Shown one piece after another: positions 11,616-12,174 of a DNA stretch of 48,852 nt (within the stretch, counting starts at the first letter, position 1; each line of letters starts with the position of its first letter). The position numbers were made by a program, and so were the translations under genes. Source of the stretch: a virus. Under the pieces are notes generated by a model. It saw only the letters and a list, made by a program, of their open reading frames with translations, had not been told where the DNA came from and searched no databases. The DNA lies in the IMG/VR virus record IMGVR_UViG_3300010399_000003, positions 1 through 48,852 of that record; one strand, 5' to 3'.

Positions 11616-12139
11616 GCATTTTCGGCCCTATACTTGTTCCAGGCGCTGTCGTGTTAAGCGCCTCGCGGTTGGGGACGGGTGCGCCGTAGTTGCTGGTTAC
11701 CGTCGGGAGACGGAAGCTAGTTAGCTCGAGCTCATGAAGCACCAGAAGGCCAATCGTGATGAAGCCGGATTGGTGTAGGGCCGTCTGGCGGCTGTGTTCA
11801 AGCGCGGGGACCAGGAGCGTTTCCGTAGGCAGATTCGACAAGCCGCTGCCAGCGCGTTCATCCATCTTAAGCCTTGGGGCTGCCGGCCCTCAGAGAGTCT
11901 GTGGCCTATCCCTTCAGGTGGGAGCCTAACGGCTGGCTGTTTAGCTGGGTCAATGTTAATGGGTGTAGCAAACCCGCTCTCGTTACTGTGGTCGTCCTGG
12001 TGGTTTCACCGGGTTCGTTCGCGGTCTAGGAGGAAAAATCGCCCGCCTAAAATCTACCCGAAATAAATGTGTCCTAGAGCCCACAATCTGCGGCTGCGCG
12101 ACGATAGGTAGAGGGACGGCGGTCTAACCTTAGCCGACC

Positions 12140-12161
12140 GGGGCCGGTATCATCCGGCCCC
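12140..12161 (+). terminator. rho-independent terminator-like hairpin
   Basis: GGGGCCGG TATCAT CCGGCCCC (8-bp GC stem) followed by GGTTCACTTTTCC. It ends the ORF-free region and lies immediately upstream of ribozyme copy 1. Confidence 0.55.
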
Positions 12162-12174
12162 GGTTCACTTTTCC

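What the first reader, a model, noticed from the sequence alone, without database searches (positions are those of the whole stretch)
11620..12174. About 550 nt of GC-rich, ORF-free sequence bounded by a motif copy and a terminator hairpin: candidate large structured RNA
The phage packs genes with overlapping start and stop codons. Against that background, 11620-12174 has stop codons in all three + frames. Its only track ORFs (11794..12066 +, 11611..11865 -, 12074..12301 -) have implausible composition.

Local and long-range complementarity I could see:
- AGGCGC...GCGCCT at 11641-11663
- CCGTC-GGGA-GACGG near 11701-11714, a GNRA-type loop
- AGGGCCG at 11778-11784 paired with CGGCCCT at 11883-11889
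- CTGGTG-GTTT-CACCGG near 11996-12011

The region ends with an 8-bp GC hairpin plus a T-run (12140-12172), right before ribozyme copy 1. It starts about 20 nt after the GATTTCCAAAAC motif copy (11599). That layout fits a discrete non-coding transcript of about 550 nt, possibly released at its 3' side by the ribozyme. I could not match it to any RNA family from memory.
Basis: partly seen in the sequence, partly recalled or inferred. Interest (0 to 1): 0.7.

Follow-up and report, generated by a model that had tools for sequence, protein, structure and literature searches.

The report
Structured phage leader RNA before hammerhead
This gene-free 0.55 kb stretch is most likely the untranslated leader of a phage operon: its first ~120 bases form an RNA fold that is kept by compensatory changes in related soil-phage lineages and matches no catalogued RNA family, and a hammerhead ribozyme sits where it would cut the leader off the first gene.

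Summary
11620-12174 is the only place in the window without a long open frame, and it is non-coding.

It is not shown to be one large, globally structured RNA. It looks modular:
- A -10-like box (TATACT, 11629-11634).
- A ~120-nt 5' domain (11641-11759), made of a hairpin with a conserved loop plus two helices around a conserved GACG/AGAA internal loop.
- A ~310-nt centre with no detectable conservation across lineages and no folding-energy signal.
- A short conserved hairpin (12070-12103).
- A 12-bp GC hairpin with a broken U-run (12136-12174).
- A type II hammerhead (12175-12235, predicted cut 12206|12207) abutting the first start codon.

The same layout recurs in 11 related metagenomic phage lineages. 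Helix sequences differ but pairing is kept: 16 of 18 pairs change on both sides. G-U pairs and folding energy favour the + strand. No Rfam family matches.

Best reading: a new cis-acting leader RNA motif, possibly an RNA polymerase-riding antiterminator like HK022 put or conAn2, which the hammerhead would release. That mechanism is inferred, not shown. A free, trans-acting RNA is the main rival. Moderately interesting: a new RNA motif tied to hammerhead arrays.

The parts
11240..11600 (.). AT-rich region with repeated boxes (CGTAA..AAAGGACTTA direct copies and an inverted AAGTCCTT copy). Likely protein-binding sites upstream of the leader promoter.
   Evidence: GC 0.433. Repeats D1 and I6. The same box CCGTAAGTCCTTT / AAAGGACTTA lies upstream of the leader in L125 and L018, and a related AAGGAGTTA box in L033. 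Only 86% identical in the close variant L121.
11599..11614 (+). Variant copy of the motif GATTTCCAAA(A)CTTAG, lying over the -35 region of the predicted leader promoter.
   Evidence: Exact ATTTCCAAANTTAG copies sit at 13682, 14684, 17365 and 20761, all on the + strand.
11629..11634 (+). -10-like box TATACT. The predicted transcription start is 6-8 nt downstream, about 11641.
   Evidence: A TAnnnT box lies 6-13 nt upstream of hairpin A in 9 lineages. No -35 box is present, so the consensus promoter scan does not call it. The start site is inferred.
11641..11663 (+). Hairpin A: stem AGGCGC(U)/(A)GCGCCU, loop (U)GUCGUGUUA(A).
   Evidence: Pair probability 0.99. Found in 9 lineages with different 6-7 bp stems and loop core GUYGKGUWA. 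All 6 stem pairs change on both sides.
11663..11759 (+). Two-helix domain. P1 11663-11672/11750-11759; internal loop GGACG 11673-11677 opposite AGAAGG 11744-11749; P2 11678-11682/11739-11743; P2 is capped by stacked helices ending in the CCGUC-GGGA-GACGG hairpin (11700-11713).
   Evidence: Minimum-energy fold. z -4.64 on the + strand against -1.21 on the - strand. The descriptor hits only the homologous leader site in 5 lineages in 1.3 Mb, with 0 hits in shuffles; a sixth (L125) is found with relaxed settings. 8 of 8 P1 pairs and 2 of 4 P2 pairs change on both sides.
11760..12069 (+). Central part of the leader. Not alignable between lineages and has no folding-energy signal. Includes the local hairpin 11996-12013.
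   Evidence: nhmmer and blastn find nothing here. Sliding z is about -1.5 to +1.5. It is still 99% identical in L121, and both substitutions there keep predicted pairs.
12070..12113 (+). Island B: hairpin AGCC-[CACAAUCUGC]-GGCU inside UGUC/GACG, with conserved core GCCCACAAUCUGCGGCUGCGCGAC (12079-12102), followed by AGGUAGAG (12106-12113).
   Evidence: 23 of 24 nt are shared with L016. Related versions occur in L030, L033/L004 and L126. AGGUAGAG is shared with L125. No extra folding stability, z +0.75.
12136..12174 (+). 12-bp GC hairpin (12136-12147/12154-12165) followed by CACUUUUCC. Either a weak intrinsic terminator or a protective 3' hairpin of the released leader.
   Evidence: (I7). Not called by the terminator scan. 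In L121, C12160>U keeps a G-U pair and one U of the tract is deleted.
12175..12235 (+). Type II hammerhead, copy 1. Stem II 12175-12180/12230-12235; GAAA 12182-12185; stem III hairpin 12185-12205; predicted cut 12206|12207; stem I hairpin 12207-12222; CUGAUGA 12223-12229.
   Evidence: RF02276 at 23.9 bits, E 0.0027, full model length. The minimum-energy fold equals the hammerhead fold, z -6.1. 100% identical in L121.
12237..12422 (+). First gene of the operon (61 aa, Cys-rich, PHROG 15221, unknown function). Its start codon lies 2 nt after the hammerhead.

Best explanation
**What is shown**
- 11641-12206 is a non-coding stretch.
- Its first ~120 nt carry an RNA secondary structure on the + strand that is maintained by compensatory changes across related phages: hairpin A, then helices P1 and P2 around the GACG/AGAA internal loop.
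- A type II hammerhead follows directly and ends 2 nt before the first start codon.

**What is inferred**
- The stretch is transcribed rightward from the TATACT box at 11629-11634, so the RNA begins with hairpin A.
- The hammerhead cuts at 12206|12207. That would free a ~566-nt leader ending in the 12-bp GC hairpin with a 2',3'-cyclic phosphate, and leave the first mRNA with a 5'-OH just upstream of its ribosome-binding site.

**Most likely mechanism (inferred, low confidence, about 0.3 on its own)**
- The 5' domain is a cis-acting element that is made first and binds the transcribing RNA polymerase or a phage or host factor.
- This lets transcription run through the leader hairpin and the hairpin-rich, hammerhead-punctuated operon. 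It would be an RNA-based antitermination or antipausing device of the HK022 put / EAR / conAn2 kind.
- put keeps working without an RNA tether to the polymerase (PMC9378689), so cleavage by the hammerhead would not defeat such a device.
- The variable centre would be spacer or lineage-specific structure.
For: **Non-coding**
- Stops occur in all six frames, and this is the only ORF-poor 555-nt stretch in the window.
- The 95%-identical variant L121 carries 1-nt deletions at 11917 and 12169. The 11917 deletion frameshifts all three + ORFs that span it.
- Its two substitutions inside the - ORF 11611-11865 are both non-synonymous.
- The - strand ORFs of the window and L030 share no BLASTP similarity, and none of the ORFs tested hits a family convincingly: no PHROG, and one sub-threshold Pfam hit at E 0.088.
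- The spacing between the two conserved motifs of the 5' domain is 27, 27, 26, 29, 26, 27, 27 and 19 nt in eight lineages and about 29 nt in L033 by hand count, so a reading frame is not kept.

**Constraint**
- The leader is 99.1% identical and the hammerhead 100% identical in L121, against 93.5-95.1% for the adjacent small ORFs and 86% for the AT-rich region.

**Structure**
- 11641-11760 folds with z -4.64 on the + strand and -1.21 on the - strand.
- The P1-GACG-P2...P2'-AGAA-P1' descriptor hits only the homologous site in 5 lineages in 1.3 Mb on both strands, with no hit in 5 shuffled replicates. A sixth lineage is found with relaxed settings.
- Hairpin A occurs in 9 lineages with different stems and a conserved loop.
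- On the curated alignment, 16 of 18 pairs change on both sides. The covariation score is 0.465 against 0.124 in shuffles (0 of 500 reach it), and slid controls pair at 25-51%.
- Many pairs are G-U, which would be A-C mismatches on the other strand.
- All three L121 substitutions convert G-C to G-U or the reverse at predicted pairs.

**Layout**
- A TAnnnT box lies 6-13 nt upstream of hairpin A in 9 lineages.
- Wherever the sequence extends far enough, a hammerhead follows the leader. The exceptions are L124, whose contig ends inside the leader, and L125, whose hammerhead is permuted with a deviant core.

**No known family**
-.

**Precedents**
- put is ~70 nt, has two stem-loops, lies just downstream of the promoter and is tether-independent (PMC9378689).
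- conAn2 regions are 260-600 bp, poorly conserved, and depend on a GC-rich patch and a stem-loop (PMC8191782).
Against: **No expression data**
- No transcript data of any kind exist for this phage.
- The promoter lacks a -35 box and is not called by the consensus scan. The 3' hairpin is not called as a terminator. Terminator-like sites in the operon (16) do not exceed shuffles (12.4 +/- 3.2). The need for antitermination is therefore not demonstrated.
- Most related leaders have a hairpin but no U-run before the hammerhead.

**Limits of the covariation evidence**
- The helices in the curated alignment were chosen because they pair, so 'percent paired' is circular. Only the covariation measures and the descriptor's specificity carry weight.
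- Only 6 lineages support P1/P2, and three others (L063, L060, L018) have at best a reduced version.

**Limits of the conservation evidence**
- The centre of the leader shows neither cross-lineage conservation nor a folding signal.
- The high identity to L121 could partly reflect mosaic recombination: the next gene but one is replaced, at 30% identity.
Confidence: 0.45

Rival explanations
1. A free, trans-acting non-coding RNA. The leader is made to be released by the hammerhead as a stable ~566-nt RNA: 5' triphosphate buried in hairpin A, 3' GC hairpin and a cyclic phosphate. It then acts away from its own transcript, for example as a decoy or scaffold for a host or phage protein, in the manner proposed for large phage-associated RNAs such as ROOL and GOLLD.
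For: - Hairpins sit at both ends of the predicted released RNA.
- A stable hairpin without a U-run precedes the hammerhead in L033, L063 and L016. That fits 3'-end protection better than termination.
- The whole leader is 99% identical in L121, not only the 5' domain.
- Its size is similar to ROOL, 581 nt (PMC5737381).
Against: - Only ~150 of 566 nt are conserved between lineages, and length varies from roughly 210 to 570 nt.
- The centre has no folding signal.
- There is no cmscan match to ROOL, GOLLD, HEARO, OLE, raiA or any other family.
- No tRNA genes lie nearby.
- No complementary target for the conserved loops exists in the 48.8 kb window.
Confidence: 0.2
2. A DNA-level control region. 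The conserved pieces would be protein-binding sites, a promoter or a replication origin, and any RNA made from it would be incidental.
For: - An AT-rich region with repeated boxes conserved in related phages lies directly upstream.
- Hairpin A is an inverted repeat at the predicted start site and could serve as an operator.
- The locus sits at a module boundary of the genome.
Against: - In hairpin A the loop is conserved while the arms vary with compensation. That is the opposite of a palindromic operator.
- G-U pairs are frequent.
- The folding energy is strand-specific.
- P1 pairs segments ~80 nt apart around a variable insert, which has no DNA-level rationale.
Confidence: 0.1
3. A riboswitch or other ligand-sensing leader. 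The 5' domain would be an aptamer whose state decides termination at the 12136-12174 hairpin.
For: - The internal loop is conserved and purine-rich, between covarying helices with a variable peripheral insert.
- The domain lies in a 5' leader.
- A hairpin with a U-run lies downstream in the window, and a terminator-like hairpin lies inside the L030 leader.
Against: - The hairpin lies ~380 nt from the domain.
- No alternative pairing links the two, and most lineages lack a U-run terminator.
- No riboswitch family matches.
- The downstream genes are unrelated small phage genes, not a metabolic set.
Confidence: 0.07
4. Protein-coding sequence or a decayed gene. The candidates are the - strand ORF 11611-11865, which gene callers annotate on the identical metagenome contigs, or the + ORF 11794-12066.
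For: An 84-aa - strand gene is called in L021-L024, and a comparable - strand ORF is called in L030 and L125.
Against: - The - ORFs of the window and L030 share no similarity.
- No convincing family hit: no PHROG, and one sub-threshold Pfam hit at E 0.088.
- Both L121 substitutions in the - ORF are non-synonymous, and the 1-nt deletion frameshifts all the + ORFs.
- Conserved nucleotides are read in different frames in different lineages.
Confidence: 0.03

Closest known systems
HK022 put RNA (putL/putR), an RNA-only processive antiterminator
   Same: - A phage element transcribed first, directly after an early promoter.
- Two stem-loops with bulges and internal loops.
- It acts on the polymerase that made it, and does not need to stay tethered through the transcript (PMC9378689). 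It would therefore survive hammerhead cleavage.
   Different: - put is ~70 nt; this domain is ~120 nt with a variable insert.
- No sequence resemblance was seen.
- Binding to the polymerase zinc-binding domain was not tested.
- Strong terminators downstream are not demonstrated here.
conAn2 RNA of Gram-positive conjugative plasmids (bipartite conAn antitermination)
   Same: - A long (260-600 bp) non-coding region near the head of a long operon of a mobile element.
- Poorly conserved in sequence overall, with function resting on a GC-rich patch and one stem-loop (PMC8191782).
   Different: - conAn2 needs the ConAn1 protein encoded just upstream to act at a distance; no such partner is identified here.
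- The host range and sequence differ.
- conAn2 is not followed by a ribozyme.
ROOL and GOLLD large phage-associated RNAs
   Same: Non-coding RNAs of about 0.5-0.8 kb found in phages and prophages, with unknown function (PMC5737381).
   Different: - No covariance-model match.
- No neighbouring tRNAs.
- Here only the ends are conserved and the length is very variable, unlike those globally conserved, ornate folds.
Type II hammerhead arrays in phages and prophages (Perreault et al. 2011)
   Same: - The element bounding the leader on its 3' side is a type II hammerhead.
- Several copies flank single genes, as described for prophages (PMC3088659).
   Different: - This applies to the neighbour, not to the leader itself.
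- A conserved structured leader upstream of the first hammerhead was not mentioned in the passages of that paper read here.
Leader-derived regulatory RNAs of P4 (CI RNA) and P1/P7 (c4), cited from memory
   Same: An RNA processed out of the leader of a phage operon that then controls that operon.
   Different: - Those RNAs pair with complementary sites in the same transcript; no such sites exist here for the conserved loops.
- As recalled from memory, their processing is by host nucleases, not a ribozyme.

Membership tests
Any Rfam 15 family (including ROOL, GOLLD, HEARO, OLE, raiA, drum, riboswitches, self-cleaving ribozymes) | Covariance-model match to the leader at or near the family's gathering score. 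| tested here: not met
   No gathering-level hit in the window or in 10 related loci. E-value scans of 11000-12600 and of three short overlapping pieces with lax filters give only noise at 16.3 bits or less, E 0.38 or worse.
Type II hammerhead ribozyme (for the 3' boundary element 12175-12235) | Conserved core CUGANGA...GAAA, three stems with stem II open, and an NUH cleavage triplet. | tested here: met
   The core and the stems are present in all 5 copies, with covarying stems II and III and triplets GUU, GUC and CUC. The minimum-energy fold is the hammerhead fold.
Type II hammerhead ribozyme (for the 3' boundary element 12175-12235) | Rfam RF02276 score at or above the gathering threshold of 37 bits. 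| tested here: not met
   23.9 bits, E 0.0027 over the full model. Missed entirely in the larger scans.
Type II hammerhead ribozyme (for the 3' boundary element 12175-12235) | Self-cleavage activity. | not testable with these tools
   Needs an in vitro cleavage assay or mapping of 2',3'-cyclic phosphate ends.
Intrinsic (Rho-independent) terminator (12136-12174) | GC-rich hairpin immediately followed by a run of U. | tested here: inconclusive
   The 12-bp GC hairpin is present, but the tail is CACUUUUCC. The consensus scan does not call it, and L121 has one U fewer.
RNA-based processive antiterminators (put / EAR / conAn2 kind) | Structured RNA transcribed at the head of the operon, directly after its promoter. 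| tested here: met
   Hairpin A starts 6-13 nt after a TAnnnT box in 9 lineages. The start site itself is inferred.
RNA-based processive antiterminators (put / EAR / conAn2 kind) | Terminators downstream that are read through only when the element is present. | tested here: inconclusive
   There is one weak terminator-like hairpin in the window leader and one in L030. Terminator-like sites in the operon do not exceed shuffles. Read-through cannot be tested here.
RNA-based processive antiterminators (put / EAR / conAn2 kind) | Binding to and modification of the elongating RNA polymerase. | not testable with these tools
   Needs in vitro transcription or structural work.
HK022 put family proper | Sequence and structure homology to putL/putR (~70 nt, two stem-loops, triplex in stem I). 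| not tested
The size (120 nt against 70 nt) argues against membership.
Riboswitch | Aptamer coupled to an adjacent expression platform by mutually exclusive pairing. | tested here: not met
   The nearest terminator-like hairpin is ~380 nt away. No competing pairing was found in the folds, and most lineages lack such a terminator.
Protein-coding gene | An open frame conserved in relatives, with substitutions biased to synonymous sites and indels in multiples of three. | tested here: not met
Leader-processed antisense regulators (P4 CI, P1 c4 kind) | Complementary target sites for the conserved RNA segment elsewhere in the operon. | tested here: not met
   No second match, on either strand, to the island B core with up to 3 mismatches or to the loop A core with up to 2 mismatches in the 48.8 kb window.

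The most novel reading that the evidence does not exclude
The 5' domain (hairpin A plus the P1/GACG-AGAA/P2 element) is a new class of RNA that rides on or reprograms RNA polymerase, or another host machine, in a clade of soil phages. It has co-evolved with hammerhead arrays: the ribozyme deliberately frees it from the message, so that one transcript yields a regulatory RNA plus a string of 5'-OH, single-gene mRNAs.
Probability: 0.25. Interest if true: 0.75.

Novelty: new variant of a known kind. Interest (0 to 1): 0.55.

Why it matters
**RNA-only control of transcription elongation is rare.** According to a 2021 paper, only put, EAR and conAn2 were known (PMC8191782). A new, covariation-supported leader motif at the head of a phage operon would be a candidate fourth example, from uncultured soil phages.

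**It gives the hammerhead arrays a concrete context.** The role of hammerhead arrays in phages has been open since 2011 (PMC3088659). Here the first ribozyme of the array always follows a conserved structured leader. That suggests the array processes one long transcript into a released leader RNA plus separate mRNAs.

**The motif is small and well defined.** It is suited to mutational, structure-probing and in vitro transcription tests.

Tried and rejected
**Searches for known families or close relatives**
- Rfam over the whole window, the region, three short pieces and 10 related loci gave nothing for the leader.
- blastn against INPHARED phages found no match.
- No tRNA or tmRNA genes were found.

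**Searches for homologous leaders**
- The gene immediately upstream (87 aa) has no homologues other than itself.
- The upstream 253-aa protein used as a single query found nothing in IMG/VR. An alignment of its homologues did work.
- The exact 17-mer of island B in IMG/VR gave only L016 plus chance hits in coding regions.
- Matches to island B in L005, L017 and L020 lie inside an ORF and were discarded.
- The hairpin A pattern gave no new lineage in IMG/VR. In the metagenome scan it gave one useful close variant, L121, and chance hits.
- Two genome-contig scans returned nothing, or chance and uninformative hits, so the host is not identified.

**Alignment attempts**
- Global MAFFT alignment of the leaders is meaningless, and mafft-qinsi/xinsi are not installed. 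A descriptor search and a hand-curated collapsed alignment were used instead.

**Structural ideas dropped**
- Kissing interaction between loop A and island B: the complementarity is not kept across lineages (checked by eye).
- Kink-turn, loop E or tetraloop-receptor identity for the GACG/AGAA loop: no fit to the consensus as recalled from memory.
- The resemblance of island B to RNase P CR-IV/V was dropped after cmscan found no RNase P match.

**Other ideas dropped**
- Stop-codon recoding was rejected because the stop types are mixed.
- Whole-leader folding z-scores in five lineages are modest, -0.8 to -1.8. L016 is the exception because of one long inverted repeat.
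Full report
**Setting**

The window is phage-like: 52.6% GC, genes on the + strand up to about 35.5 kb and on the - strand after that. 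Identical DNA (99.9%) occurs on soil-type metagenome contigs, one of them 112 kb long. No record in the INPHARED phage collection resembles the region, and the window has no tRNA genes.

The finding lies in a 1-kb gap. On its left is an 87-aa gene ending at 11193. On its right is a 61-aa gene starting at 12237.

**Check of the observation**

- Stops occur in all six frames and are of mixed types.
- This is the only place in the window where a 555-nt window has no stop-free run above 312 nt in any frame: 22 of 1932 windows, all overlapping this region.
- GC is 0.587, against 0.526 for the window and 0.433 for the AT-rich stretch just upstream.
- The 3' hairpin is 12 bp, not 8, and is followed by CACUUUUCC. 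The consensus terminator scan does not call it.
- The element that follows is a type II hammerhead. Five copies in the window share the core and have covarying stems.
- Rfam's Hammerhead_II model matches copy 1 over its full length at 23.9 bits (E 0.0027), below the gathering score of 37. The match appeared only when a short stretch was searched (missed).
- The predicted cut is between 12206 and 12207. The ribozyme ends 2 nt before the ATG at 12237.

**It is not coding**

A 95%-identical variant of the same phage, L121, differs from the window in the leader at only five positions. Two of these are 1-nt deletions, at 11917 and 12169.
- The 11917 deletion frameshifts every + strand ORF that spans it.
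- The two substitutions inside the - strand ORF 11611-11865, which gene callers annotate on the identical contigs, are both second-codon-position, non-synonymous changes.
- The - strand ORFs of the window and of the related locus L030 show no BLASTP similarity. None of the ORFs hits a family convincingly: no PHROG, and one sub-threshold Pfam hit at E 0.088.
- The distance between the two conserved motifs of the 5' domain is 27, 27, 26, 29, 26, 27, 27 and 19 nt in eight lineages, and about 29 nt in L033 by hand count, because the script mis-picked a motif there. Conserved bases are therefore read in different frames in different phages.

**Relatives**

The gene directly upstream has no homologues. 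A Pam3_Gp34-like gene 0.8 kb further upstream has hundreds. Through it, and through the hammerhead sequence, I collected related loci from IMG/VR and metagenome assemblies.

Eleven lineages share one layout:
- an AT-rich region with repeated boxes;
- a TAnnnT box;
- a structured start;
- a non-coding stretch of roughly 210-570 nt;
- a hammerhead (absent from L124, whose contig ends inside the leader; permuted with a deviant core in L125);
- then the first gene.

The lineages are the window (plus L121), L030, L033/L004, L124, L125, L126, L063/L062, L060/L008, L018, L016 and L003.

blastn and nhmmer find no overall similarity between these leaders. Global alignment fails.

**What is conserved**

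*Hairpin A* lies directly after the -10-like box. Its stem is 6-7 bp and differs between lineages. Its loop core is GUYGKGUWA. It is present in 9 lineages.

*The two-helix element* follows. P1 (8-10 bp) and P2 (4-7 bp) flank an internal loop (N)GACG / AGAA(N0-4), and P2 is capped by a variable insert of 25-73 nt. In the window:
- P1 is 11663-11672/11750-11759;
- the loops are GGACG (11673-11677) and AGAAGG (11744-11749);
- P2 is 11678-11682/11739-11743;
L016, L063 and L124 have the same CGUC/GACG hairpin with GUGA or GAGA loops.

A descriptor for this element hits only the homologous leader position in five lineages in 1.3 Mb searched on both strands. It hits nothing in five shuffled replicates. 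L125 is added with relaxed settings. L063, L060 and L018 have at best a reduced version.

*Covariation.* On a hand-curated, collapsed alignment of the three helices:
- 16 of 18 pairs show changes on both sides;
- the covariation score is 0.465 against 0.124 in shuffles (0 of 500 reach it);
- slid controls pair at 25-51%.

Because the helices were chosen for pairing, the 99% paired figure is circular. The weight lies in the compensatory changes and in the specificity of the descriptor. G-U pairs are common, which points to RNA on the + strand.

*Folding energy.* The window's 11641-11760 folds into exactly this structure, with z -4.64 on the + strand and -1.21 on the - strand.

*Island B* lies near the 3' end. 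It is a small hairpin whose core GCCCACAAUCUGCGGCUGCGCGAC (12079-12102) is 23/24 identical in L016. Recognisable versions occur in L030, L033/L004 and L126. It has no unusual folding stability (z +0.75).

**What is not conserved**

The central ~310 nt (11760-12069) cannot be aligned between lineages. It folds no better than shuffled sequence (sliding z about -1.5 to +1.5). Whole-leader z-scores in five lineages are modest.

Within the window's own lineage the centre is nevertheless 99% identical to L121, against 93.5-95.1% for the flanking small genes. All three substitutions in the leader are G-C/G-U exchanges at predicted pairs. That is suggestive but thin, and mosaic recombination could contribute.

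**Known families**

No Rfam 15 family matches the leader at any threshold worth noting, including when it is searched in three short pieces with lax filters. None reaches gathering score in ten related loci. It is therefore not ROOL, GOLLD, HEARO, a riboswitch or a known ribozyme.

**How it most likely works**

*Shown:* a non-coding stretch with an RNA fold on the + strand at its 5' end, kept by compensatory change, and a hammerhead at its 3' end.

*Inferred:*
- transcription starts about 11641 from the TATACT box;
- the hammerhead frees a ~566-nt leader that carries hairpins at both ends.

Any function of the leader must survive being cut off the message. It therefore acts either during transcription or as a free RNA.

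The closest working precedents are RNA-based antiterminators.
- HK022 put is ~70 nt, has two stem-loops, is made directly after the promoter, binds the polymerase and does not need the RNA tether (PMC9378689).
- conAn2 of conjugative plasmids is 260-600 bp, poorly conserved overall, and depends on a GC-rich patch and one stem-loop (PMC8191782).

I take a put/conAn2-like cis element as the most likely mechanism, but with low confidence. The scans show neither a canonical promoter nor an excess of terminators in the operon, and most relatives lack a U-run after the pre-hammerhead hairpin.

The main rival is a stable trans-acting RNA released by the ribozyme. The hairpins at both ends fit that reading. 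DNA-level, riboswitch and coding explanations fit the data poorly.

**Novelty and interest**

Hammerhead arrays that flank single genes in prophages are known (PMC3088659). A conserved structured leader preceding the first ribozyme was not found in Rfam or in the papers read.

It is a new RNA motif of a known general kind: a structured leader of a mobile-element operon. It rests on 6-9 lineages, and its function is untested.

Noticed in passing
window 12175-12235, 13657-13733, 17342-17416, about 18250-18318, 21264-21324: Five type II hammerhead copies, each ending 1-5 nt before a start codon. The GAGG/GGAG of the CUGANGAGG core doubles as the Shine-Dalgarno sequence. Stems II and III covary between copies. 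All copies carry one extra base (A) between stem II and GAAA, as does the Rfam consensus (C). None reaches Rfam's gathering score. Related phages carry up to 10 copies in 7 kb (L063, L003, L012).
   Followed up: partly
window 11599, 13681, 14683, 17364, 20760 (+ strand): Motif GGATTTCCAAACTTAGG(TC): 8 hits with up to 2 mismatches against 0.8 expected, and the exact copies are all on the + strand within 11-21 kb. Two copies sit in the stem III loops of hammerheads 2 and 3, and one lies just before a start codon. It could be a phage-specific promoter or an RNA signal. Similar TTTCCA..ACTTA strings lie upstream of the leader in L124 and L033.
   Followed up: partly
window 11240-11600: AT-rich region with direct copies of CGTAA..AAAGGACTTA (11295-11321, 11385-11411) and an inverted copy (11464-11475), plus three TTTTTGACG / TTTGCGACGCAA boxes. 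The box CCGTAAGTCCTTT recurs upstream of the leader in L125 and L018, and a variant AAGGAGTTA in L033. It looks like a set of regulator or initiator binding sites. This is the least conserved part against L121 (86%, with block replacements).
   Followed up: partly
window 12158-12191: The 3' arm of the GC hairpin (CCGGUUC) can also pair with the 5' strand of hammerhead stem II (GGAACC). Hairpin formation and ribozyme folding might therefore be coupled. In the minimum-energy fold both form side by side.
   Followed up: no
window 43244-43883 (- strand gene 43214-45418): Dense, imperfect 15-nt-periodic repeats (ATGTGCTGTATCAGA-like) inside a 734-aa ORF with no Pfam match. Probably a repetitive structural or fibre protein.
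   Followed up: no
window 41910-43214 (- strand) and L127 5996-10662: A radical SAM protein is encoded in the window. A related phage (L127) carries a sugar-nucleotide / NeuB / CMP-transferase cluster followed by a radical SAM gene downstream of the Pam3_Gp34-like gene, instead of the leader and hammerhead module.
   Followed up: no
L125 6170-6245: In this lineage the ribozyme after the (short, ~210 nt) leader is permuted: stem II is closed and stem III open. Its core reads CUUGAUAAG instead of CUGANGAG. It is possibly a degenerate or variant hammerhead.
   Followed up: no
L003 1-330: The contig starts with a long array of GGGGCCGCCTGG-type tandem repeats just upstream of the AT-rich region and leader. 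Possibly a genome end or a repeat-rich control region.
   Followed up: no
window 12423-12700 against L121: The second gene after the leader is replaced in the close variant L121: 30% identity there, against 93-100% on the other side of the boundary. This shows gene-level mosaicism immediately downstream.
   Followed up: no
window 11201-11235: A 12-bp hairpin (CCGGGACCGCCC / GGGCGGTCCTGG) lies right after the stop of the upstream gene, with z -4.8 for the 120-nt window that contains it. Probably the terminator or 3' hairpin of the preceding transcription unit.
   Followed up: no
window 11052-11086: Weak Rfam hit to the hairpin ribozyme (19.7 bits, E 0.76, gathering score 65) inside the coding region of the upstream gene. 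Judged to be chance.
   Followed up: no
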